From an uncultured Methanosarcinales archaeon (GTDB lineage: Archaea; Nanobdellota; Nanobdellia; Woesearchaeales; GW2011-AR9): DNA of 48,548 nt. The notes under the pieces are model-generated. The model had not been told where the DNA came from. It ran no database searches and was given only the letters and a program-made list of their open reading frames with translations. The position numbers were made by a program, and so were the translations under genes. Positions 4,476-44,140 of this stretch are shown here, one piece after another (position 1 is the stretch's first letter; each line of letters starts with the position of its first letter). The stretch lies in the NCBI GenBank assembly GCA_964404595.1, contig CAYOKQ010000001.1, positions 22,618-71,165 of the forward strand, read 5' to 3'.

Positions 4476-4498
4476 AGAAAGGTATATTCTATCGGTAT

Positions 4499-4744: not shown

Positions 4745-4746
4745 GC

Positions 4747-5106: not shown

Positions 5107-5107
5107 A

Positions 5108-31125: not shown

Positions 31126-31263
31126 ATGAAGCGTAAAATTAGCGTAAGCTTTGAAGAAAGCACTATAGCGAAATTAGACGGTCTACTAGAAAATGGTGCT
31201 TTCCGTAATAAGAGCCATATTGTGGAATTTGCAGTGAAAAAACTATTGGAGGAGAGACAATGA
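31126..31263 (+). CDS. ribbon-helix-helix (CopG/Arc/MetJ-type) DNA-binding protein, 45 aa
   Basis: Not in the ORF track (<60 aa). It reads MKRKISVSFEESTIAKLDGLLENGAFRNKSHIVEFAVKKLLEERQ. This fits a beta-strand (KISVSFE) followed by helix-helix, with the typical (R/N)xSxxI pattern. Its stop overlaps the next start within ATGA at 31260..31263. Confidence 0.7.
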   Translation: MKRKISVSFEESTIAKLDGLLENGAFRNKSHIVEFAVKKLLEERQ

Positions 31264-34200
31264 GTCCGCTCGAAGCACAAGTTCAAAAGAGCAGCTCAAT
31301 TTCTCGTTTTGCGGAACGTTGTGTGAGAGAGGCCTATGATCCTCGCTATGTGCATGATATAATCTATGAAACTTATAGGGTTCTCCACAATAGTATTGAT
31401 GATGAACTAGTTAGCTTAGAAGAAAAAGAGCTTGCAAAGCAAGAAATCAGGGAAGAATATCAATGCCTATTAGAAGACTTGCCCTGCTTTGCAAATAATT
31501 CTCAACAGCCAAGAGAACTTCTTGCATATGAAGAAGGTATTGCTTTAGGTAATTGGAGCAGAGGAATCAATGAGGCCTATAAAAAATTAGCTGGTGAAGT
31601 TGTACAGGAAACTGGAATTGATCCACTCTATGATCCTCGCAGTGTTTTTGATAATATCGGGTTGTATATTCAAGATAAGCAGTTTCCATGGTTGGAAAGA
31701 ATTGTGAGTATACTTCGTACCTATGGATCCAAATTTCTTGATAATAATTTAATTGAGTTAGATGACGAAAGCAAAAAAGCAAGAGTAGAAGCTTGGCATA
31801 GCACGCTACCCCCAGAATTAGGACAACTCTGCTCGCAGGGTGATCTATCTGATGTTATGCATTTAGGTTCTAAAGCCATGGCTGATGCTTTTTTAACCTA
31901 CTTTAATCATCATTGTCTCTCTGGATCTTTAGGGGAATCTGCCGTTTCACCAGGAGTATTTACCTCTCCCGATGAATTTAGACATGTAACAGTAGATCAT
32001 TTTTATAGTTTTGTACGAATTTCACAAAAAGTACTCGCAAAATATCTATTAGCCAAAGCTCGTGAACAGGGAGTAAATACAGCTGATCATGATTTTTGGG
32101 AGTATACCATCTTAGAATTAGCAGAGAGCAAAAAACGGATGGATACGAATCCCACCATCAATCAAAAGATACGGCCAACATTAGATTTACTCCATAGTGA
32201 GATGGTGCATTATGTTCGGAACTTGGCTGAAATAGATTTAACTGTCCTACGTCGTGATGGCGACGTACAAGCTCCTTTTGTCTCGCAATTAGATTCGGTG
32301 TATGTGCTTAGGGCAGAGAAACACAATGGTTCGCGCGACCGAGCTATATTTGCTGATGAAATGGGAACTGGTAAAACATTATCAGCGATATTAGCTGATG
32401 CGCTTTATAGAAAAGAAGGGGCAGTAAAGAGAACGCTGGTTATCTGTCCCAATCAGATGAAAAAAGAATGGGAAGAACGTTTCACTAAATACCTTTCTGA
32501 CAAAATCATTCAAAAATGGTATAGCAGTGAGGGCACATCATCTATTGGTGTCATTAATGGGTCTAAGTCACTGAAAGACATTGAGCAACATGCTGTCGTA
32601 ATAGTTAATTATGAAATGGTGCATCGCTCACTCCAATATGTAGAAAATGAAGAAGGGGTTGTGCTCGAACTTGCAAGTCAGGCCTTATTCAACGGTGTTG
32701 AAGACGTCTTTAAAGAAAATGAAACGTTGGAAGCGATTTGTTCCAGTGCAATGGAATATCTCTTGGCTAGGACAACTTTAAGAGACGCACAAAGACAGTT
32801 TAATGATAAACAACAGATACTCGAATGGATAGGAGACGATGTACGTAAAGCTGCATTTGCGTTAGCTACAGAAATGTATTTGCGTGATGAAAAGCGCACA
32901 ACCGAAAGTCTTTTTAGTTATGGGGCTGATTTTTTGATTCTGGATGAAGCGCACGCCATTAAGAATCCTGATGCTAAAAGGACGAAAGGAATAAGCGAAC
33001 TTGTCGCTGAAACTGCGAGAGTAGCGTTACTCACTGGCACCTTAATCCCCAATCGCTATGACGACATCAGTATTCCATTGCAGCTGGTTGATAGCAGCTA
33101 CAAACCAGAAAAAATCACACTGGGAGAGGGGGGCACTACCTTAGCTCCAAAATTGCGGCGTATCCGACAGGCATTAATTCCATACTTAAGCCGCAATTTA
33201 CGAGAAGAAGTGTCACCACGCAGCTATTCTATAACTTCGGAGGTGGAACGAGATGAAGTGGTGGAAGCAGACGAAGTAATGTTAATGACGTATAGGGCGA
33301 TAATCGAAGATAATCAATTATCCTTTGCAGAAAAAACTCGCCTGACACGCTTAGCAACACTCCATCCCGCCCTTGCTATCAATAAACTCTGGCAAATGTC
33401 TGAACGTGAAGACAGTTGGATTGATGCAGATGCTATTATTGAACATATTATGGATTCCTTGTCTGGAGATGTGTGGAAAACCCTGACGGATGGTTCATAC
33501 GTGCCACCGAAATACAAAAAAATTGTTGCTGAAGCAGGAGAGCATCCACACAACGTCGTGGTATTTACGTCCCACATTGAGGGGAATACTCGACCGTTGG
33601 AAAAACCCATATTTCCCATAAAGACATTGATGGAGTATTTACAGGAAGCACTGCCTCATAAAAAAATTTTGCTTCACGATGGCAGGACTGACGATCACAA
33701 GAATCCAGAACAATCAGAACGAAAAATAATTTTAAGGGAATACGGCAGCAGAGATGATGTGGTTCTCGTCGCTTCCTATTCTACCTTAGGTGAGGGATCG
33801 GACCTGACACGAGGCACTAAAGTAATTGGTTTAGATTTACCTTACGCTATTCCAGAACAAGGCGTAGGAAGAATTGATAGAATAACTCAAACCAGGGACG
33901 TAACGGCAAAATATCTTACCATAAAAGATGCCAGACTGTCTGCGGGAACAAAGTCAGGACTTACTATTGATGAGGCTGTATTGCAGTTAGGGCGGGACAA
34001 GCAAACTGTTTCATCTATTCTGGTAGACGGTCGGCCTCCTGGAAAAGAAGAACTGGAAGCATACCAGAAATTATTGGAGCAGAATGGGGAAACTCCGTAC
34101 ACTTACACACCTTTGCGTGGAGGCTTAGAGCTTCATAATAAGGAGAAAGAACAAGCTGAACAATTGCGAATTTTTATCAATAGAACTGCCAGCAACAATC

Positions 34201-34991
34201 GTGGCAGTAGAAGAAATGTCAAAGATTTTGAAGAATACTTGCAGCGAACCTACATTGAAAAATCAGTCCTAGAACCAACCAGTTATACCTTCAAATCTAA
34301 TAGTATGTTAGCGCAATTAGTTGCTCCAATTGTAGAAAGTAAACGTCTCGCAGATGTTGGCGGAGGTCCAGCTTCTTTAGCATTAGCCGGGTTAAACAAT
34401 GCTTACGATATTATTGATCCAACTGCATGGAGACAAGTCTTAGAACAAATACTTCGGGAAAGGGGGACCAATTTCCCAGAAAATGCGCACTTCCATCAGC
34501 AATTCCTGGCTGATTTTGCAGCCCAAAATCCTAATGTTCTCTATGATATAATTACATGTAACAATATGTTACATTGGACCACGCCGCGTGCTCCTAATGG
34601 AAAATTCTCTGAGCGAGAACAAACCTTGCGAGAAATTAATGGACATCTTACCACTTCCGGAATTTTTGTCTTAGGGATGCCGGGAGAATATTCCCAATCA
34701 GCGCAGGCAAATTTAGAAACTATTTTACAGCATACTGGCTTTCATGAGTATACTCTTGACCAAGTGAGCTCGCCACAAGACAAAGGGTTCCAGGAGTTAG
34801 TGGTAGTTGCGAAGAAAACGGGAGAACCACGTGGTGAACCATTACATGGATCACAATTGATTTTCAAATATTCTACCGGAAGAGCTGTTAAACGATTACG
34901 TGGAGGAAAAGAGGAAAAAAAGCCAAAAGAAGGTGCGAAAGCAGATATTTTCCTCTTCGGCACCAAGAATATCCGTAAGGTGCTAGAATGA
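31260..34991 (+). CDS. SNF2-family ATPase fused to a C-terminal class I SAM-dependent methyltransferase, with an ~360-aa N-terminal region of unknown function
   Basis: Helicase motif I is ADEMGTGKT (aa 365-373), II is LILDEAHAIKN (aa 560-570), III is LLTGTLIPNR, V is ASYSTLGEGSDLT, and VI is QGVGRIDRITQTR (~aa 867). The methyltransferase motif I is LADVGGGPASLAL (~aa 1030), followed by YDIIDP, DIITCNNMLHW and GIFVLGMP. There is no (D/N)PP(Y/F/W) motif. Confidence 0.85.
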   Translation: MSPLEAQVQKSSSISRFAERCVREAYDPRYVHDIIYETYRVLHNSIDDELVSLEEKELAKQEIREEYQCLLEDLPCFANNSQQPRELLAYEEGIALGNWSRGINEAYKKLAGEVVQETGIDPLYDPRSVFDNIGLYIQDKQFPWLERIVSILRTYGSKFLDNNLIELDDESKKARVEAWHSTLPPELGQLCSQGDLSDVMHLGSKAMADAFLTYFNHHCLSGSLGESAVSPGVFTSPDEFRHVTVDHFYSFVRISQKVLAKYLLAKAREQGVNTADHDFWEYTILELAESKKRMDTNPTINQKIRPTLDLLHSEMVHYVRNLAEIDLTVLRRDGDVQAPFVSQLDSVYVLRAEKHNGSRDRAIFADEMGTGKTLSAILADALYRKEGAVKRTLVICPNQMKKEWEERFTKYLSDKIIQKWYSSEGTSSIGVINGSKSLKDIEQHAVVIVNYEMVHRSLQYVENEEGVVLELASQALFNGVEDVFKENETLEAICSSAMEYLLARTTLRDAQRQFNDKQQILEWIGDDVRKAAFALATEMYLRDEKRTTESLFSYGADFLILDEAHAIKNPDAKRTKGISELVAETARVALLTGTLIPNRYDDISIPLQLVDSSYKPEKITLGEGGTTLAPKLRRIRQALIPYLSRNLREEVSPRSYSITSEVERDEVVEADEVMLMTYRAIIEDNQLSFAEKTRLTRLATLHPALAINKLWQMSEREDSWIDADAIIEHIMDSLSGDVWKTLTDGSYVPPKYKKIVAEAGEHPHNVVVFTSHIEGNTRPLEKPIFPIKTLMEYLQEALPHKKILLHDGRTDDHKNPEQSERKIILREYGSRDDVVLVASYSTLGEGSDLTRGTKVIGLDLPYAIPEQGVGRIDRITQTRDVTAKYLTIKDARLSAGTKSGLTIDEAVLQLGRDKQTVSSILVDGRPPGKEELEAYQKLLEQNGETPYTYTPLRGGLELHNKEKEQAEQLRIFINRTASNNRGSRRNVKDFEEYLQRTYIEKSVLEPTSYTFKSNSMLAQLVAPIVESKRLADVGGGPASLALAGLNNAYDIIDPTAWRQVLEQILRERGTNFPENAHFHQQFLADFAAQNPNVLYDIITCNNMLHWTTPRAPNGKFSEREQTLREINGHLTTSGIFVLGMPGEYSQSAQANLETILQHTGFHEYTLDQVSSPQDKGFQELVVVAKKTGEPRGEPLHGSQLIFKYSTGRAVKRLRGGKEEKKPKEGAKADIFLFGTKNIRKVLE

Positions 34992-36412
34992 CTCTTGACA
35001 AAATCGTGCGCGGAATCGAATCGAGGTTAGCAGAACAATCAGCTATTCTTCATCTTGCCAATGCCTGGATGGACAGGACAAATGGCGTAGTGAGAGAAAG
35101 ATTTACAATAAGTGCACAGGAATACATTACTCAACTACAAAATGTACCGTTATGGCATGAAGTCAAAGAGGATATTCCCCTATATACTCACCTTATTGGC
35201 AGTACATATCTCACCGGTGTTTCACGCGAGGAAGCAGAAGTTACCCTATGCTTAAGGCATTTTCCTACTGCCATTCATGCTTTGTCTCACTTTCTAAAGC
35301 ATCCAGAATATTCTACCAACTCACAGTATCACACCTTTGGTTCGCCACTAACGCTGACACAGGTTTTACGAGATTATTCTACCACTCTCAGTGAGGAAGG
35401 TGGATTTAAACCTAGGGCTGGAGATTGTAATACCTTTTTTTTTGCACTAAAAAAGAGAAATTTTCGAGAGGACAGAATTGTACAGCTTCTTGGATTAACG
35501 AAAGAGTGGGATGAATATAGGCACTCGAAAGGAATTCCAAAGTATATCCGTAAAGCGGTGCATGCAACAGTAGAGACCTTCTTACAGAATCCTGATTATT
35601 GTAATGATGCACATAATAAATTTGGCAGTCCCAAGAAACTTTTATTTGTCTTAAGAAAGGCAGAGGTTGAAGGATGTACTGCAGCAGTACATGCCTTGCG
35701 CTATGGGTATACCTCAGAGGAATCATTGTTAGAAGCAGTTGATCTCAAGCGAGAATGGACAACATATCAACGTACTAAAGGTATTCCAAAAGGATATAGA
35801 GAGACGGCAGACCAAGTTCTGCGTCATTTTCTTGCAGATCCGGATTATAATGCCGATGGTAGAAAAAATACTGCTTCGCAAGATGATAAAAGTTTTGGAG
35901 CCCCTTTTTCTTTATTACGGGTGCTGTTAAACTACAGAATAGATAATAATGGTAGAGCCTCATGGCAAAAGTTTAAGGGCGATGCTGGCGATGTTGCTAA
36001 TTCCATGCGCAAGAAGAGGTTTACATCAGAAAAATTATTAGAATCAATTTGTCTCTCAGAAGCATGGTCAGTGTATCAGGCAGCTCGGGGAATACCGAAA
36101 CGGTACAGAGAGGCCGCTACAGAGGTTGTGACTCATTTTTTACAGTGTCCTCTCTACACCAGGGGTAAAGGAAAAGGAAATTATACTGGCCAACCCTGGA
36201 AATTGAGGTCCATCTTACGTGATTATCACCCTGATGCCCAAGATTTGAAAAGGAAGGGGCCCGCGTATATGGTTTGGGCTGCTGTAAGCACTGGTAAAAT
36301 TTCAGAGGAACAACTTCTGGATACAATAGGCTTAACAGAACCATGGCAGGACTATCAACACAGCACTGCGGCTGCTCCTTTCCTGTTTATGCCAGAGAGG
36401 TATCAACAATGA
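34988..36412 (+). CDS. repeat protein paralog 1 (474 aa): conserved ~103-aa head plus 4 repeat units; unknown family
   Basis: The start shares an ATGA with the upstream stop. The head MTLDKIVRGIESRLAEQSAILHLANAWMDRTNG is shared with the next two genes. Hand-parsed units are aa 104-199, 200-282, 283-385 and 386-474. Confidence 0.85.
   Translation: MTLDKIVRGIESRLAEQSAILHLANAWMDRTNGVVRERFTISAQEYITQLQNVPLWHEVKEDIPLYTHLIGSTYLTGVSREEAEVTLCLRHFPTAIHALSHFLKHPEYSTNSQYHTFGSPLTLTQVLRDYSTTLSEEGGFKPRAGDCNTFFFALKKRNFREDRIVQLLGLTKEWDEYRHSKGIPKYIRKAVHATVETFLQNPDYCNDAHNKFGSPKKLLFVLRKAEVEGCTAAVHALRYGYTSEESLLEAVDLKREWTTYQRTKGIPKGYRETADQVLRHFLADPDYNADGRKNTASQDDKSFGAPFSLLRVLLNYRIDNNGRASWQKFKGDAGDVANSMRKKRFTSEKLLESICLSEAWSVYQAARGIPKRYREAATEVVTHFLQCPLYTRGKGKGNYTGQPWKLRSILRDYHPDAQDLKRKGPAYMVWAAVSTGKISEEQLLDTIGLTEPWQDYQHSTAAAPFLFMPERYQQ
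35297..36409 (+). repeat. intragenic array of 4 protein-level repeat units (83-103 aa each) in paralog 1
   Basis: Recurring pattern: FL-x2-P-x-Y ... FG(S/A)P..L..VL..Y ... G(D)C/A ... (S/T)EE.(L)L(D/E).(V/I)(G/D)L.(E)W..YQ..(K/R)GIP...R ... FL. Confidence 0.75.
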
Positions 36413-37827
36413 GCATTGATACCTTAGTAAGAGGAGTGGAAAGAAAACTTTCGGTTCAGTCAGCACTCTTAGATTTAGGTAATGCCTGGATGGATAAAAC
36501 CGATGGCATAGTCATAGATGAGGTGCACATGGATGAGCAGGAGTATGCATCTGCTCTAAAAAGAATTCCATTATGGGGAAGAGTTAAAGACAACTTGCCT
36601 CTCTATTCTAAACTGTTACAAGGAAGAAAAATAAGAGATCCAGAGCACGGTCAAGAAGCACGTCTGCTGTTTTATTTTCCAAAGCTGCTATATGTGTTTG
36701 ATGATTTCTTAGATGATCCTATCTATTCTCCCGGAAAAATAGGCCAAATACCTTTATCGTTTCCCTTAACTTTCTCCATAGTCTTAAATGGGTATGTGGC
36801 CAGAGAAAGAAAAATTGTGTGGAAAAAAGGTGACTGTAAAACAGTATTTCGAACGATTGAAAGTGGTAATCTTAAAGAAGAAATGATTCTTGATAGTCTT
36901 GGATTAAAGGATCGTTGGGAGCAATATCAAAATAGCCGGAAGCTTCCGAATGATATTCGTGAGGAATTAGAGAGTGCTTTAGACCATTTTCTATCGCATC
37001 CTTTGTATAGTGATGGAAAAGGAGGAGAACGCGGTTCTTTGGGATCACCTTTTTCCTTGAGAACTGTTTTATTAGGTTATGTTCCGGGAAAAGGGCTTAG
37101 AAAACGAAGCGGTCAATGCCGTAAAGTTTATTTTCTTCTCCAAGCAGGTCATGCACAGGAAGAATTTGTTTTGGATTCAGTTGGCCTTAGGGAACAATGG
37201 GAAGCATACCAAAAAACAAAAGGATTGCCCGAGGACATCCGAGAAAGAACCAAGGCACTTCTGGAACGATTTTTAGATAATCCATTGTATAGCAGCGGCA
37301 AATCTAAACAAGGCACTCTTGGTTCACCGTTGCCTTTGAGAACAGTATTGCGTAATTTTACTTTAGAGGGTATGCTGGACCATAATAAAGGTGAGATGAA
37401 ATTGGTGTATCAAGCAATTGTCCGTAATGTAATCACAGAAAAATTTGTGCTTGACTCAGTTGGATTAAGTGAACAATGGGAAACATATCAAAAGACCCGG
37501 CAGTTTCCAGAAGAAATTGCCACACCTTTGCGGCAGACTTTGGAACATTTTCTACGTGCCCCCTTGTATAGTACAGGAAAAAGGCAGCAAGGAAAAAAAG
37601 GGCAACCTCTCCCATTGAAAATGGTACTGCATAGTTATCATAATCAATCAGGAGAAATGTCCACTGGCAAAGGAGATTGCCATACCATCTATCGGATGAT
37701 TTATAATGGACATTTTACGGAGGATTATATTCTGGATAGAGTAGCGCTTACGCAGCAATGGAAAGATTATCAACAAAGCACCGGGGCTAAACCATTTATA
37801 TTTCCTGCGAGGGGGTGTACTCGATGA
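36409..37827 (+). CDS. repeat protein paralog 2 (472 aa): head plus 4 repeat units; unknown family
   Basis: I prefer the ATG at 36409 (MSIDTLVRGVERKLSVQSALLDLGNAWMDKTDG) over the track start at 36343. It aligns with the N-termini of both paralogs and forms an ATGA overlap with the upstream stop. Units are 94, 94, 93 and 90 aa. Confidence 0.85.
   Translation: MSIDTLVRGVERKLSVQSALLDLGNAWMDKTDGIVIDEVHMDEQEYASALKRIPLWGRVKDNLPLYSKLLQGRKIRDPEHGQEARLLFYFPKLLYVFDDFLDDPIYSPGKIGQIPLSFPLTFSIVLNGYVARERKIVWKKGDCKTVFRTIESGNLKEEMILDSLGLKDRWEQYQNSRKLPNDIREELESALDHFLSHPLYSDGKGGERGSLGSPFSLRTVLLGYVPGKGLRKRSGQCRKVYFLLQAGHAQEEFVLDSVGLREQWEAYQKTKGLPEDIRERTKALLERFLDNPLYSSGKSKQGTLGSPLPLRTVLRNFTLEGMLDHNKGEMKLVYQAIVRNVITEKFVLDSVGLSEQWETYQKTRQFPEEIATPLRQTLEHFLRAPLYSTGKRQQGKKGQPLPLKMVLHSYHNQSGEMSTGKGDCHTIYRMIYNGHFTEDYILDRVALTQQWKDYQQSTGAKPFIFPARGCTR
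36712..37824 (+). repeat. intragenic array of 4 protein-level repeat units (90-94 aa) in paralog 2
   Basis: These are the best-conserved copies, e.g. SHPLYSDGKGGERGSLGSPFSLRTVLLGY...EEFVLDSVGLREQWEAYQKTKGLPEDIRERTKALLERFL versus DNPLYSSGKSKQGTLGSPLPLRTVLRNF...EKFVLDSVGLSEQWETYQKTRQFPEEIATPLRQTLEHFL. Confidence 0.8.
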
Positions 37828-38960
37828 CATTGGATACATTAGTACGTGGAGTAGAAGCAAGAATTTCTGAGCAGTCAGCTCTCCTGGAATTAGCGCAGGC
37901 TTGGATGGAGAAAACTTCTGGAAGAGTTACAAATGAAGTTACTTTTGATACACGAGATTACATTTCCCTGTTAACTTCTTTACCTTTATGGAATGAAGTA
38001 AGAACTGAATTATCTCTCTATGCCCCCATGCTCCGTCAGACATGCTTAAGAAAGAAAAATACCAGAGGAGAGAAAGCACGGATGTTAATTTATGCTCCCA
38101 CTTTAATTCATGTGATCAACCACGTCATCGAGCATGATTTTTATAGCGAAGGAGAATCAACAAGTCCTTTAAGCCATCCCTATGGATTACTTTCCATTTT
38201 ACGTAATTATGTTTCCGAAGGAGAAGGTAAAAGGGTTCGTTTTAAAGGGGAAGGGCGCAGTGTTTTGATGGAAATGGCAGGCGGTTACTTAGATCAGGAA
38301 ACAATCTTCCGAACCACCGGCCTACAAAACAGATGGGATGCATATCAAAGCCAAAGAAAAATTCCTCCGCAGGTGGCTCGTAAAATAAAAAATGTTTTAG
38401 AACATTTCTTGGAGCATAAGCATTATTCTGCCGGTAATGGAAAACAGGGTGCACTCGGCCAACCATTGCCACTGCGCTCAGTTTTGCACAATTACCAAGC
38501 TAAAGAAAATGGAAAAATGGTGCAGTCGAGAGGGGATTGTGCTCAAATATATACGGCATTGTTCCAAGAATTAATTACAGAGGATATGGTTTGGAAAGCG
38601 ACAGGTTTGGAAGAAGCGTGGAGTGAATACCAAAAAACAACAAAACTTCCACCAGAAATGGTTGACAAAATTAATGAAACTATGCGCACCTTTTTACGAA
38701 ATCCTTTGTATAGCCCGGGCTGTGCAGCCTATGGGCCAAAAGGTGTTCCTATCCCACTGAACTCTTTTTTTCGTAGCTACAGAGTTGGAGAAATGCGTAT
38801 CAGGAAAAATTGTGGCGATTTACGTGTGGTATGGGATGGATTAGTGCGAGAGAGAATCACTCCAGAGATGATTTGGCAAGCAGTTCCTTTAAAAGCAGAA
38901 TGGGAAGCGTATCGACAAAGTACTGCGGATAAGCCTTACCAGCTAGGAACAGAGTTATGA
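37824..38960 (+). CDS. repeat protein paralog 3 (378 aa): head plus 3 repeat units; unknown family
   Basis: The ATG at 37824 (MTLDTLVRGVEARISEQSALLELAQAWMEKTSG) forms an ATGA overlap with the upstream stop. The track start at 37815 is a GTG. Units are 94, 95 and 87 aa. Confidence 0.85.
   Translation: MTLDTLVRGVEARISEQSALLELAQAWMEKTSGRVTNEVTFDTRDYISLLTSLPLWNEVRTELSLYAPMLRQTCLRKKNTRGEKARMLIYAPTLIHVINHVIEHDFYSEGESTSPLSHPYGLLSILRNYVSEGEGKRVRFKGEGRSVLMEMAGGYLDQETIFRTTGLQNRWDAYQSQRKIPPQVARKIKNVLEHFLEHKHYSAGNGKQGALGQPLPLRSVLHNYQAKENGKMVQSRGDCAQIYTALFQELITEDMVWKATGLEEAWSEYQKTTKLPPEMVDKINETMRTFLRNPLYSPGCAAYGPKGVPIPLNSFFRSYRVGEMRIRKNCGDLRVVWDGLVRERITPEMIWQAVPLKAEWEAYRQSTADKPYQLGTEL
38130..38957 (+). 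repeat. intragenic array of 3 protein-level repeat units in paralog 3
   Basis: Same consensus as the other two arrays. The terminal unit ends with WEAYRQSTADKPY, parallel to WQDYQHSTAAAPF in paralog 1 and WKDYQQSTGAKPF in paralog 2. Confidence 0.75.
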
Positions 38961-38997
38961 ATGCAGTAACCTTTTCGCTATACTGCTATAACAAAAG

Positions 38998-39005
38998 ATT
39001 TAAAA
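38998..39005 (+). promoter_or_regulatory. TATA-like box (ATTTAAAA) about 28 nt upstream of the 39030 ATG
   Basis: It lies in the 69-nt gap after paralog 3 and suggests the 319-aa gene can be transcribed independently and leaderless. Confidence 0.3.
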
Positions 39006-39029
39006 ACTACTAAAGAGTAAAAACAAAAA

Positions 39030-39989
39030 ATGGCCCTTGAAGACAAATTCAAACAGCAAGCAGTCGTACTGGATCTATTGGAAGCAGCAGGAATAGCCGG
39101 CAAACAAAGAGCTACCTATGAAGCTACATTAACCACTCCTTTGACCATAAGATTATTTACCGCCGAAGCAGATTTAACTCCCGTAAAACAGAAATTGGCA
39201 GGTAAACGTGTAAAATTAACGGAGAGTCAAGAAAATATAGCAGTACTAGTAAGACATTTGCATGACTTTGAACAATCGGTGGGGGCTTGGTTAGCAACAC
39301 GGCCTACTCAACCATACGCTGTCGAATATGTGCTGGCTCATTATGACATCAAGAAAAAAGATTTTACTGATGCTGGCACTGCCACAGCATTGCTCAATAA
39401 AGTAGATTTCAATGGTCTTCAAACACTCCGTAGGCATAGCCGATTTGAGGGAGAATTAAGAAAACTCTATGGGTCTGTTTCCAATGGAACCGTTGATTAT
39501 ACCGCAAAAGCAGAGGATGTTTCCAAAAAAATTATTGGCAGAATTATGGTAGTTCCAAGCACAGCTTTGACTACTGCTTTCGCAGTCAATGAATGGAAAG
39601 CGTTCAAGGCTGGGAAAGGTAATACTTATCAGCCTATTCATGCTACAATTATTGAAACTGAAGGCTTTGAAACTGATTCAGCAGTGACCAGATCGCGCTA
39701 TTGCATGTTAGCAGCACCAGGACAAATTGATATAATGCCTAATCGGGGTCACACGCTTCTTAACATTGGAACGAGGAATACAGAAGTTCCATCTTGTGTA
39801 ATGGTGCGCGCAATAGTTATTGAAGGCAAAGCGATAGAAGGGCCCGGCAAGGTGAGTGAAGCTTTGTTTGATCAAAATTTAGTTGGACAGGTTCTGGGTG
39901 TAGATATTCCGGTGGAAGGATATACTGCTCCCAGTGGGTATGTTCCAGCAAGTGCTGCTTTTAGTACTGGAAAATATCGGATGCAATAA
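39030..39989 (+). CDS. hypothetical protein (319 aa), A/T/G/V-rich, with no TM segment or signal peptide
   Basis: Clean ORF at roughly 45-50% GC, like the operon upstream. The N-terminal half looks helical and the C-terminal half beta-rich. I recognise no motif. Confidence 0.6.
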   Translation: MALEDKFKQQAVVLDLLEAAGIAGKQRATYEATLTTPLTIRLFTAEADLTPVKQKLAGKRVKLTESQENIAVLVRHLHDFEQSVGAWLATRPTQPYAVEYVLAHYDIKKKDFTDAGTATALLNKVDFNGLQTLRRHSRFEGELRKLYGSVSNGTVDYTAKAEDVSKKIIGRIMVVPSTALTTAFAVNEWKAFKAGKGNTYQPIHATIIETEGFETDSAVTRSRYCMLAAPGQIDIMPNRGHTLLNIGTRNTEVPSCVMVRAIVIEGKAIEGPGKVSEALFDQNLVGQVLGVDIPVEGYTAPSGYVPASAAFSTGKYRMQ

Positions 39990-40005
39990 TTGAGGAAAAT
40001 AAAAA

Positions 40006-40965
40006 TTATTCAACAATCGAAGGTAGATAACTAATTTTATATTCTTTAAAGATTAATATATTTTCAAAGCTCTTGATTACTTCTGGGAATTTATCTCTCA
40101 ATTCAAATATTAAATTTCTGATATCTGTAGAACTTTCCACCTGTAAATCAATAAGGAGGTCATAATTACCAATTGTTGAAGTCAAATAATAAGTTTCTTT
40201 TTGTTGCAAGATATAACTCATAAATCTTTTTTTCGTTTTTTCGTCTATTGGCTGTAATTTAATCAATAAAAGATACCATTGTATCCCTAATTTGGATACA
40301 TCCAATTTCATTCTGAAACCATTAATAACTTCGCTTGTTTTGAGTTTCTTTAATCGATATCTAACTATGTCTATGGTCATTCCGTTTTTATTAGAAATTG
40401 TTGTTATTCTTTCTCGTGCATTTTGTCCTAATGCTTTCATCAAATGAATATCCTCATTGTCCAAGGTTATTCGTTGGAATTGTTCTGTTTGAACTCCTTC
40501 AAGATCGGCCTCTAAGAATCTATAACTTAATTTATGTGATCTTGTTAATATGGAAAAATTAGCCTCTCTTAAATATTCTGCGCAAATATTTTTTATTTTA
40601 AGGTATAAATCATCAAATTCTTTAAGGGTCTTAGCATAAACTAAAAGAATTATATTTGATTTACCGATTCCATTAATAATCCAGCCAATATTTTCTTCAT
40701 CAACAAATTTTTCAATTATCTCTTTTTCCGTTTTATTGGTTATTTTTTCTAATTCCAAAAAGATGTAATAGGAATTAAACCCCAATTTACTAAGGTTAAA
40801 TTCCGTATAAAAGCTTTTAATGAGTCCATTTTCCTGCATTTTCTTAATTCTGTAGCTAACTGCTTGTTTGCTTATCTTTAACTTCTTAGCAATATTTGAA
40901 TCTGGTTCCCGGCAATTCCTATTAAGAATTCTGAGAATCTCTTGATCTCTCTTGTTTAACCACAT
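40006..40965 (-). CDS. tandem (duplicated) Lrp/AsnC-family transcriptional regulator, paralog B
   Basis: Two HTH_AsnC-like units are present: ILRILNRNCREPDSNIAKKLKISKQAVSYRIKKMQENGLIKSF and LMKALGQNARERITTISNKNGMTIDIVRYRLKKLKTSEVINGF. Architecture and length match the gene at 17136..18098. GC is very low. Confidence 0.8.
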   Translation of the reverse strand: MWLNKRDQEILRILNRNCREPDSNIAKKLKISKQAVSYRIKKMQENGLIKSFYTEFNLSKLGFNSYYIFLELEKITNKTEKEIIEKFVDEENIGWIINGIGKSNIILLVYAKTLKEFDDLYLKIKNICAEYLREANFSILTRSHKLSYRFLEADLEGVQTEQFQRITLDNEDIHLMKALGQNARERITTISNKNGMTIDIVRYRLKKLKTSEVINGFRMKLDVSKLGIQWYLLLIKLQPIDEKTKKRFMSYILQQKETYYLTSTIGNYDLLIDLQVESSTDIRNLIFELRDKFPEVIKSFENILIFKEYKISYLPSIVE

Positions 40966-41076
40966 ATTAGAACAATAAGGTAATAATTATATAAATCTTA
41001 CTAAAAAGTTCTATTATTTTATAGTTAATTTAATGATAGCTATACTTGTTTTATTCTTGGTGAGTTTAATATTAAT

Positions 41077-42102
41077 ATGGATACCTCAAAAAAATTGAAA
41101 TGCGGAAAATTGCCCGATAATGAATTGTCTAAAATTTTAGAAAAATATACCAATAGTGCCAATGAAAGAGTATTATTAGGGCCAAAACTTGGAGAAGATG
41201 CAGGAATAATTGATATGGGTTCAAAAACAAATAATTGTTTGGCAGTTGCAGTCGATCCAATAATGGTAAATATTTCCAATGCTCCGTATTTTGCTGTTGC
41301 CATTAACGTAAATGATATCGTGACCAGGGGAGCTACTCCTAAATGGGCTTCTTCAAGTGTTTTTTTCCCAGAAGGATCGACCTTAGATGACGTTGACAGA
41401 TTCTTTGGACAGTTATATGATGCCATTAAACCACATGGAATTTCCATCGTAACTGGACATACTGAAGTAACTTCTCTTCTAAAAAATCCAGGAATTGTTT
41501 TAACAATGTTAGGAGAAGTAGACAAAGATAAGATTATTACTACCTCAGGGGCAAAAGAAGGAGATTCATTAGTTTTAACCGGCAGTGCAGGAATAGAAGG
41601 AACGGCAATTTTAGCAGCAGATATGTACCAATCATTACAAGGAAAAGTTGATGAAAGCACAATAGGGAGAGCAAAGCAATTTCTGTATGATCCCGGTATT
41701 TGTGTTGCGCAAGCAGCTTACATAGCTTGGAATCATTCACCCCATTCATTGCATGACCCAACAGAAGGGGGTGTTAGGAAAGGGATTGAGGAATTAGCGA
41801 TAGCTTCAGGGAATGGGGTTTATGTTGATTATGATAAAATTCCAATTAGAGAAGAAACTCAAAAAATATGTGCTGTTACTGGTGATGACCCACTAGGAAT
41901 ATTTGGTTCAGGAGCTTTATTGATCAGTATTGGTAAAGATAAAGTTAAAAGTTTACTCAGAGATTATCAGAAAGTTGGCATTGTAGCACAGGAAATTGGA
42001 CGAGTAACTTCAGAAGATAAAGGAAGAGTGTTGCGTTATCAGGGAAAAGAGATTCCGTTACTGGCAAGCTATACAGACGGCTTAATAGATCGGTTGAATT
42101 AG
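41077..42102 (+). CDS. AIR synthase-related protein (PurM/HypE/ThiL superfamily)
   Basis: GEDAGIIDMG...AVAVDPIMV...FAVAINVNDIVTRGATPKW is the PurM-like N domain. GISIVTGHTEV and the later HDPTEGG follow. The minus-strand ORF 41040..41660 is an antisense shadow. Confidence 0.8.
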   Translation: MDTSKKLKCGKLPDNELSKILEKYTNSANERVLLGPKLGEDAGIIDMGSKTNNCLAVAVDPIMVNISNAPYFAVAINVNDIVTRGATPKWASSSVFFPEGSTLDDVDRFFGQLYDAIKPHGISIVTGHTEVTSLLKNPGIVLTMLGEVDKDKIITTSGAKEGDSLVLTGSAGIEGTAILAADMYQSLQGKVDESTIGRAKQFLYDPGICVAQAAYIAWNHSPHSLHDPTEGGVRKGIEELAIASGNGVYVDYDKIPIREETQKICAVTGDDPLGIFGSGALLISIGKDKVKSLLRDYQKVGIVAQEIGRVTSEDKGRVLRYQGKEIPLLASYTDGLIDRLN

Positions 42103-42156
42103 TTATCTCCTATTTTTTTTCTTTCTTAAAGTGTTAACTTCTATAAAACATACATT

Positions 42157-42546
42157 CTATGCCGCAATTGCTTCCTGCACATTTATTTCTTCATCAACTT
42201 CCCGATACAGCGCATGAATCTTTCGAATGATCTCTGGCCGTGGCTTTCGACTGGCTAACGCAACATATGCTTCCAGCTCTTTAATTTTGCCCAATTCACG
42301 CTTTATGGAAGCCAGAAATCTTTCCCTAGCCCCTGCTTTCAGAGCACTGCCGGCAGATTTCCATTCTGCTTTGACACTGCGCTCTAATCTTCCTAAAAAA
42401 GTATTGATGTGGCGACATAACCCTTGAATATGTTCGTCATCATGTTCGCCAGCTTCATTCAAGGAAACAATAAGTTCTTCGATCTTGGATGCAATAGCAC
42501 TGTACACTTGATGTACCTGCTGGACAAAGGGGCGTAATTGAGTCAT
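42157..42546 (-). CDS. hypothetical helical protein (129 aa)
   Basis: ORF only. Confidence 0.45.
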   Translation of the reverse strand: MTQLRPFVQQVHQVYSAIASKIEELIVSLNEAGEHDDEHIQGLCRHINTFLGRLERSVKAEWKSAGSALKAGARERFLASIKRELGKIKELEAYVALASRKPRPEIIRKIHALYREVDEEINVQEAIAA

Positions 42547-42749
42547 TCTTAGGCCTCTTTTCCAAGTATATCGGCTGTACTTGCGCCAAGCACCGCGAGT
42601 AATAAAGTAGTTGCAGTTACTTTATACACATGTTCAAAATTAGAGGTTAAATCGAGAAAGCCAAAGATCATTAAGGTGCCAACTACCACAAGCAATGAGA
42701 TGCAATACACCACGAGCACCCGTATGGGAATGAAGCGGAAAATACGAAT

Positions 42750-43085
42750 TTACTTGACTTTGCGAAAAACAAAAAAATACAAGAAAAAGAAACATACGAT
42801 CAATGAAATGATATACAAGAAGAATACCCGTACCACCGATATCTTATCGGCTATCTCGACACCATAGAAAAAAGCAAAATGACCGACGGTACCAATTAAG
42901 GCCCCAATGACACTGCGCACCACATCTGCACGGGTGATTTTGGTCAGAGGATGGCTACTGGTATCTTTTTTGATAGCTTTCTTGAGGCTCTCTAACTCTT
43001 GAAGTTCTTTCGTTTCTAAATCCTCTATTTTACGTTCTTCCTGAAGTATGAGTTTGGGGCGACTCTTTTTGGATTTTCTGGGCAT
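42750..43085 (-). CDS. hypothetical membrane protein (111 aa)
   Basis: Basic/acidic N-terminus followed by two TM helices. Confidence 0.5.
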   Translation of the reverse strand: MPRKSKKSRPKLILQEERKIEDLETKELQELESLKKAIKKDTSSHPLTKITRADVVRSVIGALIGTVGHFAFFYGVEIADKISVVRVFFLYIISLIVCFFFLYFFVFRKVK

Positions 43086-43293
43086 GGTACTGGAAAGAGA
43101 GTTAAGGAATATAAAGGTTACTGCTTATAGGAAAAGCGCCCGTAGAGTTATATAATTCTTTATACATATATTTATATACCTCTTTATTATCATTTCTTAT
43201 ATGGAAAAAATGGATGAGGGGACAGATCAAGTTCTTTTAGAGATTAAAGAGATTAGTAAACGAATCGATAAACAAATAGAAAGAAATAGAAGA

Positions 43294-43722
43294 TTACCCC
43301 TTCTTTTTTAATGAGTGATATTTCCTATATAAAATTTCATATTTATTGACGATATTTTTGGCATCTTTTAGTAATTCCTGATTTTCATAACTTACTACAT
43401 CGACTTCCTGTTTTTGATATTGAAATTTCTTTTCCAGTATAAACTTTTCAAGAGTAGCTGTAGTTAAAACTATGAGTGCAAATATGCTTATAAAAATTGC
43501 TTTGACAGAGACTTCCAAATACACTGAAACAAAATATATTAAAAATAATTGCTCAAAGAAGAAGACAAGAATGAAGAAAAGAGTAAAAATACCATAATTT
43601 TTATTGATAAAAACTCTTAAATGATTAAATTTTTGATTAATTACAGTCAACGATTCTTTTAAAAAAATCAATAAAATGATTAATAGTAGAATAAAAATGA
43701 TAAATAATCCTATAAGCATCAT
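43294..43722 (-). CDS. hypothetical membrane protein (142 aa)
   Basis: Three TM helices and a C-terminal charged tail. Very low GC. Confidence 0.45.
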   Translation of the reverse strand: MMLIGLFIIFILLLIILLIFLKESLTVINQKFNHLRVFINKNYGIFTLFFILVFFFEQLFLIYFVSVYLEVSVKAIFISIFALIVLTTATLEKFILEKKFQYQKQEVDVVSYENQELLKDAKNIVNKYEILYRKYHSLKKKG

Positions 43723-43846
43723 TTCGTAACCAATGATTACATCTTTTTATACATAACTGTCTTGCAAAATATATTTTTGTGAATGTTAATATATGTGCTA
43801 CTATATCACCATAATTCTTTTAAATCAATCATTTCTACATTTCAAA

Positions 43847-44140
43847 ATGCCTTTTTCCAAAACTTTTCCTAGAACCATTCCCGGAAGTAATTATCCGGTA
43901 TGGGAAGAAGTATTCTTGAGTGAAGAAGAGGAGAAGCAGGTAGAAGAAGAATGCAAACAAGAAAATTTCAAATTGCTCGATGATTCTCTACGGCAGGCAA
44001 AAACGTTGGTAATTAAGCATGCCATCAATACGGAAGATAACGTTGCCAGATTAGCGGTGGCTTTATTTGAAAAACAGGCTTCTCACGTGATATTCTGGAA
44101 GGAAAGCAGGGCGAAAGAGAAGTTTGAAGGGAAGAAATAA
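43847..44140 (+). CDS. hypothetical protein (97 aa)
   Basis: The ORF track starts at 43793. I prefer the ATG at 43847 (MPFSKTFPR...) because the first 18 codons look like AT-rich leader sequence. Confidence 0.4.
   Translation: MPFSKTFPRTIPGSNYPVWEEVFLSEEEEKQVEEECKQENFKLLDDSLRQAKTLVIKHAINTEDNVARLAVALFEKQASHVIFWKESRAKEKFEGKK

What the first reader, a model, noticed from the sequence alone, without database searches (positions are those of the whole stretch)
34988..38960. Tandem triplet of paralogs built from a shared ~100-aa head and 11 copies of an unassigned ~83-103-aa repeat
Shared head:
- All three proteins begin M-(T/S)-(L/I)-D-x-(I/L)-VRG-(I/V)-E-x-(R/K)-(L/I)-x-(E/V)-QSA-(I/L)-L-x-L-x-x-AWM-(D/E)-(R/K)-T-x-G.
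- By hand count, 37 of the first 70 residues are identical between paralogs 2 and 3.
- The heads are 101-103 aa long.

Repeat units:
- After the head come 4, 4 and 3 repeat units.
- My hand boundaries are P1 aa 104/200/283/386, P2 aa 102/196/290/383 and P3 aa 103/197/292.
- The unit consensus is FL-x2-P-(L)-YS-x-GK-x3-6-(L)G-(S/Q)-P-(L/F)-(P/S)-L-(R)-x-VL-x-(N/G)-Y ... (K/R)-G-(D/E)-C-x2-(V/I)-(Y/F) ... (T)-E-(E/D)-x-(V/I)-L-D-(S)-(V)-GL-x-(E)-(Q)-W-(E)-x-YQ-(K)-(T)-x2-(L/I)-P-x2-(I)-(R) ... L-(E)-(H/R)-FL.

Tails: in each protein the last unit is cut at the same point and ends with the conserved tail W-x-(D/A)-Y-(Q/R)-x-ST-x-x-(K/A)-P-(F/Y).

I do not recognise this unit as any named repeat family.

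Inference: the proteins form a helical modular (solenoid-like) array that diversified by both tandem gene duplication and intragenic duplication. That pattern is typical of binding or specificity proteins. The conserved head and tail could dock onto the SNF2 protein.
Basis: seen in the sequence. Interest (0 to 1): 0.82.

Follow-up and report, generated by a model that had tools for sequence, protein, structure and literature searches.

The report
New 95-residue domain arrays beside SNF2
Three neighbouring archaeal genes encode proteins built from a shared head plus 4, 4 and 3 copies of a roughly 95-residue five-helix domain with no detectable relative, and they always sit just after an SNF2 motor-methyltransferase gene and usually before a DNA-glycosylase-like gene, so they look like interchangeable recognition subunits of an undescribed DNA-handling system.

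Summary
P1 (34988-36412), P2 (36409-37827) and P3 (37824-38960) are paralogs with 4, 4 and 3 repeat copies. A profile built from P2 alone finds every copy in P1 and P3 at 23-91 bits, against at most 5.3 bits in 1000 shuffles.

The head is therefore about 85 aa, all 11 domains are complete, and the "truncated last unit" is a phase artefact.

One domain folds alone with high confidence (pLDDT 95, pTM 0.86). It has no Foldseek match in PDB or BFVD and no Pfam, NCBIfam, PHROG, PADLOC or PDB-sequence match.

The family is very rare: 30 hits among 1.84 billion protein representatives. Named relatives are Woesearchaeota.

An SNF2-methyltransferase gene lies directly upstream in 8 of 8 informative loci. 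An AAG/MPG-like gene lies directly downstream in 6 of 7.

Domain number ranges from 2 to 5 in complete proteins. Two near-identical strains differ by exactly one domain.

Function is inferred, not shown. My best reading is non-catalytic, recombination-diversified adaptor or recognition subunits of the SNF2 machine. The ligand is unknown, and direct DNA binding is not supported.

The parts
31260..34991 (+). SNF2-family ATPase (motifs DEMGTGKT aa 366, DEAHAIKN aa 562, TGTLIPN aa 592, GVGRIDRITQ aa 868) fused to a C-terminal class-I SAM methyltransferase domain (DVGGGPASLA aa 1032, CNNMLHW aa 1100). First gene of the cassette.
   Evidence: Pfam SNF2-rel_dom 1.9e-18; Methyltransf_12/23 weak. Motifs located. 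Homologs sit directly upstream of the repeat genes in 8 of 8 loci.
34988..36412 (+). P1, 474 aa: head plus 4 domains plus C-terminal motif. ATGA overlap with the SNF2 gene.
34988..35248 (+). P1 head (aa 1-87)
   Evidence: head HMM 1.8e-33; coordinates checked
35249..35536 (+).
   Evidence: domain HMM 91.8 bits
35537..35785 (+). P1 domain 2 (aa 184-266); short form that lacks the hairpin
   Evidence: 58.2 bits; alignments
35786..36094 (+). P1 domain 3 (aa 267-369); extended loop 1
   Evidence: 72.9 bits
36095..36376 (+). P1 domain 4 (aa 370-463)
   Evidence: 82.7 bits
36353..36388 (+). P1 C-terminal motif YQHSTAAAPFLF
   Evidence: the motif is conserved across the family
36409..37827 (+). P2, 472 aa: head plus 4 domains plus C-terminal motif. 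ATGA overlap with P1.
36409..36663 (+). P2 head (aa 1-85). AF2 predicts helix 3-31, strand 34-36, helices 43-51 and 55-71.
36664..36945 (+). P2 domain 1 (aa 86-179)
   Evidence: 80.4 bits
36946..37227 (+). P2 domain 2 (aa 180-273)
   Evidence: 86.3 bits
37228..37506 (+). P2 domain 3 (aa 274-366)
   Evidence: 88.1 bits
37507..37791 (+). P2 domain 4 (aa 367-461)
   Evidence: 99.6 bits
37768..37803 (+). P2 C-terminal motif YQQSTGAKPFIF
37824..38960 (+). P3, 378 aa: head plus 3 domains plus C-terminal motif. ATGA overlap with P2.
37824..38081 (+). P3 head (aa 1-86)
   Evidence: head HMM 6.4e-35
38082..38363 (+). P3 domain 1 (aa 87-180)
   Evidence: 70.5 bits
38364..38648 (+). P3 domain 2 (aa 181-275). 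This is the domain modelled alone (pLDDT 95.3).
   Evidence: 104.8 bits; model
38649..38933 (+). P3 domain 3 (aa 276-370)
   Evidence: 74.9 bits
38910..38945 (+). P3 C-terminal motif YRQSTADKPYQL
39030..39989 (+). Last gene of the cassette, 319 aa. The N-terminal ~190 aa is unassigned, with a weak profile match to the repeat-protein head. The C-terminal part is an AAG/MPG-like glycosylase-fold domain (ETEGFE aa 209, RSRYCML aa 221, PSCVMVRA aa 254).
   Evidence: Pfam PF02245 at 24.9 bits, gathering score 27. All 6 orthologs match PF02245 at E<=0.01, best 4.8e-9. Alignments; hhalign.

Best explanation
SHOWN
- P1, P2 and P3 are real, translationally coupled paralogous genes.
- Each protein has three parts: an N-terminal helical head of about 85 aa; 4, 4 or 3 complete copies of a roughly 95-aa domain; and a short C-terminal motif Y-Q-x-S-T-x-x-x-P-[FY].
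- The domain has five helices plus a small hairpin. It folds on its own and has no detectable sequence or fold relative.
- The three genes form the variable middle of a conserved cassette found in Woesearchaeota (DPANN archaea). The cassette order is SNF2 ATPase fused to a class-I SAM methyltransferase, then 1-3 repeat proteins, then a protein with an AAG/MPG-type glycosylase fold.

INFERRED
- The repeat proteins are non-catalytic, interchangeable adaptor or target-recognition subunits of the SNF2-methyltransferase motor.
- The conserved head, and possibly the C-terminal motif, docks them on the motor.
- The variable parts of each domain (second half of loop 1, the hairpin, helix 3) form the recognition surface.
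- In-register recombination at the conserved helix4-turn-helix5-linker block changes domain number and order.
- The assembled machine surveys DNA, for defence or repair, with the AAG-like protein as the likely effector.
- What the domains recognise (DNA, modified bases or proteins) is not established.
For: Repeat architecture.

Independent fold: the single-domain AF2 model has pLDDT 95.3 and pTM 0.86; full-length P2 has pLDDT 84.

No catalytic signature: the only nearly invariant positions are core-type (F of HFL, P of GxP). The 'GDC' cysteine is absent from 5 of the 11 window domains.

Linkage to the motor: SNF2-methyltransferase lies directly upstream in 8 of 8 loci. One of these is a lineage where the SNF2 protein is only 28% identical over 1165 aa. 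Junctions are ATGA overlaps.

Linkage to a DNA enzyme: an AAG-like gene lies directly downstream in 6 of 7 loci, and all six match PF02245.

Faster evolution than the partner: the SNF2-methyltransferase C-terminal half is 76% identical between the window and L001, but the best-matching repeat proteins are only 34-55% identical.

Variable copy number: 1-3 genes per cassette and 2-5 domains per complete protein. L014 (481 aa) and L015 (386 aa) differ by exactly one domain, while their neighbour paralog is 100% identical.

Mosaic in L006: an 84-nt helix4-helix5-linker block differs by only 1-3 nt among three domains (dN = 0). The ~55 aa before it are 26-35% identical.

Where variability lies: loop 1b (3.4 bits), hairpin (2.95) and helix 3 (2.7), against about 2.0-2.2 bits elsewhere.

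Shared head: the head matches the N-terminus of the AAG-like protein weakly but repeatedly, always from residue ~4-9 (hhalign E 5e-4, 5e-5, 3e-4; probability 31-66%). This fits a common docking module.
Against: - No direct evidence of any interaction.
- No DNA-binding signature. No HTH or other nucleic-acid-binding family is hit, and there is no conserved basic patch.
- Whole-protein pI ranges from about 6 to 9.9 across complete members, and window domains are only mildly basic.
- The methyltransferase is a generic class-I type (Methyltransf_12/23), not a recognised DNA methyltransferase family.
- The cassette sits among housekeeping genes, not in an obvious defence island or mobile element.
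- The AAG-like gene is missing in one divergent lineage (L007).
- The head versus AAG-like match is below the level usually accepted as homology.
Confidence: 0.45

Rival explanations
1. Direct modular DNA readers. Each 95-aa domain contacts a DNA element, so the array sets the sequence specificity of the SNF2-methyltransferase/glycosylase machine. This would be analogous to HsdS target-recognition domains or TALE repeats.
For: - The neighbours act on DNA: an SNF2 translocase and an AAG-like fold.
- Window domains have pI of about 8.4-9.4, apart from P3 domain 1 at 6.4.
- The helix4-turn-helix5 segment (TEExVLxxxGLxExWxxYQ) looks like a helix-turn-helix in sequence.
- The modular copy-number variation is the kind expected of specificity subunits.
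Against: - None of 65 domains gives a consistent hit to any HTH or other DNA-binding Pfam family.
- Foldseek finds no HTH or other fold at E below 4.
- No conserved basic positions. The would-be 'recognition helix' carries the conserved core W and Y.
- Several full-length members are acidic, with pI 6.0-6.5.
Confidence: 0.15
2. Protein-binding sensors or decoys. The arrays recognise viral or cellular proteins, as the repeat sensor arms of immune ATPases do, and thereby switch the SNF2 machine on.
For: - Fast divergence relative to the motor.
- Variable surface loops on a rigid scaffold.
- Paralog expansion.
- No nucleic-acid-binding signature.
Against: - No defence-island context.
- No PADLOC hit for the repeat proteins.
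- No relatives found in the phage and plasmid collections for P2, or in viral contigs for the SNF2-methyltransferase, to suggest an arms race.
Confidence: 0.12
3. Substrates or regulators of the fused methyltransferase. The arrays are methyl-acceptor or auto-inhibitory partners of the SNF2-methyltransferase, not target recognisers.
For: - The methyltransferase belongs to the generic small-molecule/protein class (Methyltransf_12/23), not to DNA methyltransferase families.
- Tight translational coupling.
Against: - No invariant Lys, Arg, Gln or Cys acceptor position is shared by all domains.
- A pure substrate role does not explain rapid diversification and domain-number variation.
Confidence: 0.1
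4. Continuous helical solenoid. The units pack into one superhelical scaffold rather than forming separate domains.
For: - The full-length P2 model is confident through three consecutive domains and has pTM 0.65, so the domains may pack in a fixed way.
- Linkers are short (about 10 aa) and conserved.
Against: - A single unit folds alone with pTM 0.86 and its own hydrophobic core.
- The unit is 95 aa long.
- No solenoid family (HEAT, TPR, ANK, PPR, Sel1) is hit.
- No solenoid structure is matched with significance.
Confidence: 0.1
5. Functionally unrelated neighbours. The link with the SNF2 and AAG-like genes is inherited synteny within one small clade and has no functional meaning.
For: All loci come from a narrow group of MAGs. 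Two of them (L006, L009) even share flanking folate and purine genes.
Against: - The flanks differ in the window, L010, L012/L007, L013 and L014, while the cassette order is kept.
- The association survives divergence of the SNF2 protein to 28% identity.
- Stop/start overlaps are retained.
Confidence: 0.04

Closest known systems
Type I restriction-modification specificity subunits (HsdS), including loci with several tandem or shufflable hsdS genes
   Same: Non-catalytic, modular proteins encoded next to a translocase and a methyltransferase. Conserved segments alternate with variable recognition segments. Recombination at the conserved segments reshuffles the modules. Several paralogous genes can sit in one locus.
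   Different: - No sequence or fold similarity: there is no Methylase_S hit and no Foldseek hit.
- The units are 95-aa helical domains present in 2-5 copies, not two target-recognition domains.
- The methyltransferase is not an N6-adenine DNA methyltransferase type.
- There is no nuclease; an AAG-like protein takes that position.
TALE and other one-module-one-target repeat proteins (PUF, PPR)
   Same: Tandem near-identical scaffolds with variable positions. Copy number changes by in-register recombination.
   Different: The unit is about three times longer and folds as an independent globular domain. No hit to these families and no evidence of nucleic-acid binding.
SNF2-plus-methyltransferase defence systems (DISARM DrmD/DrmMI; BREX BrxHII/PglX; Dpd DpdE)
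   Same: An SNF2-family ATPase is encoded together with a methyltransferase function and accessory genes. The best PADLOC and NCBIfam hits of the SNF2 protein are ZorD, BrxH, DrmD and DpdE.
   Different: - The hits cover only generic helicase motifs. Scores are 26-47 bits against curated cut-offs of 500-1200.
- The other required components of these systems were not seen among the cassette and neighbouring proteins scanned.
- The methyltransferase is fused to the ATPase and is of a generic class-I type.
- None of these systems has the repeat proteins or an AAG-like gene.
Alkyladenine/methylpurine DNA glycosylase (AAG/MPG, Pfam PF02245), for the downstream gene only
   Same: All six cassette orthologs match PF02245, best 4.8e-9. 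They keep an ETE[GA]F motif and the ...VM[VI]RA... segment. From memory, these correspond to the catalytic-Glu region of AAG; this is a lead, not a test.
   Different: The window copy is below the Pfam gathering score (24.9 against 27). Only profile positions 25-96 of 181 are matched. The protein carries an unassigned ~190-aa N-terminal extension. Activity was not tested.

Membership tests
Any curated protein family or domain (Pfam-A, NCBIfam, PHROGs, PADLOC) | A significant profile match for the repeat proteins or the isolated domain | tested here: not met
   P1-P3 have no hit below E=0.001 in any of the four libraries. Among 65 isolated domains, the most frequent Pfam family is hit by only 3 members, at E>=0.05.
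Any solved structure (PDB) or predicted viral structure (BFVD) | Sequence-profile or fold similarity | tested here: not met
   - Profile search against PDB sequences: best E=1.1, a coiled-coil artefact.
- Foldseek with the pLDDT-95 domain model: best PDB E=6.1 at TM 0.23; best BFVD E=4.4 at TM 0.26.
- Full-length model: best E=1.1.
Solenoid repeats (HEAT, TPR, ANK, PPR, Sel1) | Units of 20-50 aa that do not fold alone and match the family profiles | tested here: not met
   The unit is about 95 aa and folds alone (pTM 0.86). No profile hits.
Helix-turn-helix DNA-binding domains | A tri-helical HTH recognised by a profile or fold match, with an exposed polar or basic recognition helix | tested here: not met
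   No HTH family appears among the hits of 65 domains. There are only two insignificant BFVD rows named HTH (E 8-9, TM 0.16-0.17). The candidate recognition helix carries the conserved W and Y and no conserved basic residue.
Type I R-M HsdS (Methylase_S) | Target-recognition domains matching PF01420, next to HsdM and HsdR | tested here: not met
   No PF01420 hit. The neighbouring methyltransferase matches only Methyltransf_12/23/11, and weakly.
DISARM, BREX, Zorya or Dpd defence systems | The SNF2 component reaches the family cut-off and the other core genes are present | tested here: not met
   NCBIfam scores against cut-offs: DrmD 37 bits against 950; DpdE 25.5 against 500. The best PADLOC hits, to ZorD, BrxH and DrmD models (52.8, 42.2 and 38.6 bits), cover only about 60-100-residue motif stretches. 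No other core gene turned up among the cassette and neighbouring proteins scanned.
The new family itself (head plus 95-aa domain array) | N-terminal head (M-x-[LI]-[DE]...QS-x-L[LI]-x-L-x-x-AW[MIV]-x-x-T-x-G), at least one domain with LxHFL...PxYS...GxPxxLxxVLxxY...GDC...EExxLxxxGLxxxWxxYQ, a C-terminal [ST][ST]xxxP[FY] motif, and a gene directly after an SNF2-methyltransferase gene | tested here: met
   Head HMM about 1e-33 to 1e-35 for P1-P3. Eleven domains at 58-105 bits. Tail pattern present. Position after the SNF2 gene confirmed.
AAG/MPG glycosylase superfamily (downstream gene 39030-39989) | Match to PF02245 at the gathering score; catalytic Glu region retained; glycosylase activity | tested here: inconclusive
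   The window protein scores 24.9 bits against a gathering score of 27. All 6 orthologs match at E<=0.01, best 4.8e-9. The ETEGF motif is kept. Activity cannot be tested with these tools.

The most novel reading that the evidence does not exclude
The cassette is an undescribed archaeal DNA-surveillance system. An SNF2 motor fused to a methyltransferase is programmed by interchangeable arrays of a new 95-aa recognition domain. The arrays are diversified by in-register recombination, each domain reads one target feature, and an AAG-like glycosylase acts as the effector. That would make the arrays a new class of natural modular, re-programmable recognition proteins.
Probability: 0.15. Interest if true: 0.85.

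Novelty: categorically new. Interest (0 to 1): 0.62.

Why it matters
If the reading holds, three things follow.
- It defines a new protein domain, and probably a new small helical fold, seen so far in only a handful of DPANN archaeal genomes.
- It defines a new three-part gene cassette that links an SNF2 motor, a methyltransferase and an AAG-type glycosylase fold. No catalogued repair or defence system has that combination.
- It gives a natural example of recognition arrays whose module number changes between near-identical strains. Such scaffolds are of interest for engineering binders.

It would also give a first handle on DNA-transaction or defence biology in Woesearchaeota, which have no cultured, genetically tractable representative.

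The caveat is that only the anatomy, rarity and gene linkage are shown. The function is inferred.

Tried and rejected
Searches that found no assignment:
- Pfam, NCBIfam, PADLOC and PHROGs on P1-P3: nothing.
- Pfam on 65 isolated domains: no recurrent family.
- PDB sequence search with domain and head profiles: nothing meaningful. PDB sequence search with the methyltransferase part and the N-terminal 357 aa of the SNF2 protein: nothing.
- Foldseek with the full-length model and the single-domain model against PDB, and the single-domain model against BFVD: no match below E=1.

Searches for relatives:
- Word-indexed search of 5.8 billion proteins with P2 and with a family alignment: only self plus P0002 and P0005.
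- The same search with the SNF2-methyltransferase C-terminal half: 4 hits.
- GTDB genome scan with the SNF2-methyltransferase alignment: only the Woesearchaeota contig already held. The JGI metagenome scan and the IMG/VR scan found nothing.
- tblastn of P2 against phage and plasmid collections: no match.

Ideas tested and dropped:
- Rosetta-stone fusion. P0028 has an N-terminal extension before the head, but it is not related to the SNF2 protein.
- The AAG-like protein's N-terminus containing a full copy of the 95-aa domain. The hhalign register is unstable (E 0.016 for the domain alone), so only the head-helix similarity is kept as a lead.
- Orthology of the three paralogs across loci from a head tree. 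Only the P3 type (W_P3, L001_a, P0010) groups clearly.
- Population variation. Logan contigs L002-L004 each differ from the window by 1 SNP, which is uninformative.

Other:
- Literature searches for the gene combination found nothing relevant.
- No tRNA and no Rfam family in the window.

Full report
**1. What is at the coordinates**

The stretch 31260-39989 holds five co-oriented genes:
- a 1243-aa SNF2-family protein (31260-34991)
- P1 (34988-36412, 474 aa)
- P2 (472 aa)
- P3 (378 aa)
- a 319-aa protein (39030-39989)

The mechanical ORF list starts P2 and P3 at upstream codons. Homology and public gene calls place the true starts at 36409 (MSIDTL) and 37824 (MTLDTL). The SNF2/P1, P1/P2 and P2/P3 junctions are all ATGA stop/start overlaps. 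That points to one transcript with translational coupling. The last gene follows a 69-nt spacer.

**2. Check of the observation**

Paralogy is strong:
- P1-P2 4e-88, P2-P3 4e-84, P1-P3 2e-49.
- Out-of-register alignments reach 6.5e-58, which demonstrates internal periodicity by itself.

The head pattern matches all three proteins, 37 of the first 70 residues are identical between P2 and P3, and the tail pattern is present in all three. Its 11 units align at 19-47% identity and measure 83-103 aa.

As an independent control, I built an HMM from P2's four domains only. It detects four domains in P1 and three in P3 at 22.8-90.7 bits. The best score in 1000 shuffled versions of P1 and P3 is 5.3 bits. 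At DNA level the most conserved 59-nt segment recurs six times, with 279-282 nt spacing inside P2.

**3. Correction: the repeat phase**

I re-cut the units to start at that helix and iterated an HMM over the family. This gives an 85-position model that finds complete domains at these residues:
- P1: 94-180, 190-263, 273-366, 376-459
- P2: 92-176, 186-270, 280-363, 373-457
- P3: 93-177, 187-272, 282-366

Three things follow:
- The head proper is about 85 aa. In the P2 model it is helix 3-31, a short strand, then helices 43-51 and 55-71.
- All 11 domains are complete, so the 'last unit cut at the same point' is a phase artefact.

The tail (YQxSTxxxP[FY]) occupies the place of the internal linker (YQxTxx[LI]Pxx). 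It is, however, more conserved than the linkers across the whole family, including a subfamily with a different head. It may therefore have a role of its own.

**4. The domain**

I modelled one re-phased domain (P3 aa 181-275) with an alignment of 65 domains. The model has pLDDT 95.3 and pTM 0.86. In the 96-residue modelled fragment its layout is:
- helix 1 (residues 2-17)
- a long loop closed by a beta-bridge
- helix 2 (37-43)
- a small hairpin
- helices 3, 4 and 5 (60-67, 73-80, 83-90)

It is a self-contained globular domain, not a solenoid turn.

No relative was found by structure:
- Foldseek against 350,542 PDB chains: best E=6.1, TM 0.23.
- Foldseek against BFVD: best E=4.4.
- Full-length model against PDB: best E=1.1.

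No relative was found by sequence either:
- Pfam, NCBIfam, PHROGs and PADLOC on the proteins.
- Pfam on all 65 domains individually.
- Domain and head profiles against PDB sequences.

Conserved positions are mostly core-type: LxHFL, PxYS, GxPxxLxxVLxxY, G-D-C, EExxLxxxGL and WxxYQ. The Cys of 'GDC' is absent from five of the eleven window domains, so a catalytic cysteine is unlikely.

Variability concentrates in three segments:

| Segment | Mean entropy (bits) |
|---|---|
| Second half of loop 1 | 3.4 |
| Hairpin (also the main site of length variation) | 2.95 |
| Helix 3 | 2.7 |
| Other segments | about 2.0-2.3 |

There is no conserved basic patch. The window's domains are only mildly basic: ten have pI 8.4-9.4 and P3 domain 1 has pI 6.4. 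Several family members are acidic overall.

**5. Rarity and distribution**

- The word-indexed search of 5.8 billion proteins found only the window's own proteins and one relative.
- An exhaustive HMMER scan of 1.84 billion cluster representatives found 30 proteins at E<=0.001, and 20 at E<=1e-30.
- The SNF2-methyltransferase partner is equally rare, with 4 hits. One is annotated as coming from a Candidatus Woesearchaeota archaeon.
- The only GTDB species-representative hit is a Woesearchaeota groundwater MAG.
- Nothing was found for P2 in the phage and plasmid collections, or for the SNF2-methyltransferase in IMG/VR contigs.
- The window itself is archaeal chromosome. It carries Hef (helicase-ERCC4-HhH), aIF5B, Trm1, RtcA and a class-I aminoacyl-tRNA synthetase.

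**6. Conserved cassette**

Domain counts per repeat protein, in gene order:

| Locus | Upstream | Repeat proteins (domains) | Downstream |
|---|---|---|---|
| Window | SNF2-MT | 4, 4, 3 | AAG-like |
| L001 | SNF2-MT | 3, 3, at least 3 (contig ends) | not visible |
| L006 | SNF2-MT | 4 | AAG-like |
| L009 | SNF2-MT | 3, 3 | AAG-like |
| L010 | SNF2-MT | 4, 5 | AAG-like |
| L013 | SNF2 + MT as two ORFs | 3, 5, 5 | AAG-like |
| L014 | not visible (contig start) | 4, 2 | AAG-like |
| L015 | SNF2-MT | 3, 2 | not visible |
| L012 + L007 (same assembly) | SNF2-MT, only 28% identical over 1165 aa, E 1e-85 | 2, at least 3, 4 | no AAG-like gene |

SNF2-MT means the SNF2 ATPase fused to the methyltransferase.

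The SNF2-methyltransferase gene is therefore directly upstream in 8 of 8 informative loci. The AAG-like gene is directly downstream in 6 of 7. The flanking genes differ between most loci, so the cassette is conserved as a unit rather than through its surroundings.

The partners:
- The SNF2 protein keeps its ATPase motifs. Its C-terminal domain has a class-I SAM-binding motif (DVGGGPASLA) but matches only generic Methyltransf_12/23 models, not DNA methyltransferase families.
- All six downstream proteins match Pfam Pur_DNA_glyco, best 4.8e-9. The window copy scores 24.9 bits against a gathering score of 27. All keep an ETE[GA]F motif.

**7. Dynamics**

- Between the window and L001, the SNF2-methyltransferase C-terminal half is 76% identical. 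The best-matching repeat proteins are only 55%, 43% and 34% identical. The one clearly orthologous type (P3-like) is last in the window and first in L001.
- L014's 481-aa protein and L015's 386-aa protein are identical over the first ~332 and the last ~52 residues and differ by exactly one 95-aa domain. The adjacent paralog is 100% identical in both. Domain number therefore changes on very short timescales by in-register recombination.
- In L006, an 84-nt block encoding helix 4, the turn, helix 5 and the linker differs by only 1-3 nt among three consecutive domains (dN = 0). The ~55 residues before it are only 26-35% identical. This is a mosaic of conserved recombination scaffolds and divergent inserts.

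**8. A lead on the head**

Profile-profile comparison aligns the head with the extreme N-terminus of the AAG-like proteins in three different alignment pairs. The alignment always starts at residues ~4-9 (...lE..L..Qs.lL.La.A...). The values are E 5e-4, 5e-5 and 3e-4, with probability 31-66%.

Among 987 ORFs from six loci, the best non-family hits of the domain HMM are the AAG-like proteins of the window (E 0.037) and L006 (0.27). This is below the usual bar for homology, and the register beyond the first helix is unstable. It is what one would expect if the repeat proteins and the glycosylase-like protein share a docking helix for the same partner.

**9. Interpretation**

Shown:
- the anatomy
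- the statistical reality of the repeats
- the lack of any detectable relative
- the rarity
- the cassette linkage
- the rapid modular variation

Inferred:
- The arrays are non-catalytic adaptor or recognition subunits of the SNF2-methyltransferase motor.
- They dock through the conserved head and present variable loop and helix-3 surfaces.
- The machine works on DNA, with the AAG-like protein as effector.

The closest functional analogy is the HsdS specificity subunit of Type I restriction-modification systems, including loci with several recombining hsdS genes. Every membership feature tested for HsdS, TALE-like repeats, solenoids, HTH domains and the SNF2-containing defence systems was not met.

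What the domains recognise remains open. Direct DNA reading is not supported by composition or conservation. The methyltransferase type and the housekeeping context leave repair-type or regulatory roles as possible as defence.

**10. Verdict**

It is an unassigned domain family within an undescribed, narrowly distributed archaeal cassette. Interest is moderate to high (0.62). The structural and genomic novelty is solid, but the biology rests on inference, and DPANN genomes hold many uncharacterised families.

Noticed in passing
L010 2431-2604 with 2583-3824, and 3788-3958 with 3951-5525: In both paralogs of this JGI contig, the first ~45 residues of the head lie in a separate short ORF. The frame breaks at the same point (after VVWDRDD), and the two heads are identical. 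This could be a duplicated frameshift, an assembly error or recoding.
   Followed up: partly
L006 7131-7864: An 84-nt block (helix 4, turn, helix 5, linker) is nearly nucleotide-identical in three consecutive domains (1-3 differences, dN = 0). The ~55 residues before it are only 26-35% identical. The pattern is a mosaic of conserved scaffolds and divergent inserts.
   Followed up: yes
L014 107-1552 versus L015 1258-2418: Two near-identical metagenomic strains differ by exactly one 95-aa domain in the first repeat protein. The next paralog (P0017) is 100% identical in both.
   Followed up: yes
L013 330-4042: In this Woesearchaeota MAG the SNF2 part (867 aa) and the methyltransferase part (362 aa) are called as separate ORFs. 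The first repeat gene is interrupted at an ambiguous base. Whether this is a real split or a sequence-quality problem is unknown.
   Followed up: no
window 39030-39600 (N-terminal ~190 aa of the AAG-like protein): This region has no family assignment. Its first helix gives a weak, repeatable profile match to the head of the repeat proteins (hhalign E 5e-5 to 5e-4).
   Followed up: partly
window 24167-25009, 26676-27575 and 27608-29815: A cluster of DNA-processing genes lies just upstream of the cassette: a Cas4/Dna2-like PD-(D/E)XK nuclease, a YhcG/DUF1016 nuclease (PADLOC candidate PDC-S02, 1e-133), and Hef (helicase-ERCC4-HhH).
   Followed up: no
window 17136-18098 (-) and 40006-40965 (-): Two proteins of about 320 aa, both in the Lrp/AsnC-like winged-HTH family. 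They are about twice the usual Lrp length, and one appears to have two HTH regions. One lies directly after the cassette, convergent with it.
   Followed up: no
window 40001-44000: G+C drops to 0.32-0.35 immediately after the cassette, against 0.41-0.42 inside it.
   Followed up: no
window 38961-39029: The only real spacer in the cassette contains an A/T-rich TTTAAAAA element about 30 nt before the ATG of the AAG-like gene. This could be an archaeal TATA box that gives the last gene its own promoter. It was read by eye only.
   Followed up: no
P0029 (233 aa, from the representative search): An N-terminus resembling an NAD-dependent epimerase is joined to a single repeat domain with the C-terminal motif. 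It could be a chimeric contig or a real fusion.
   Followed up: no
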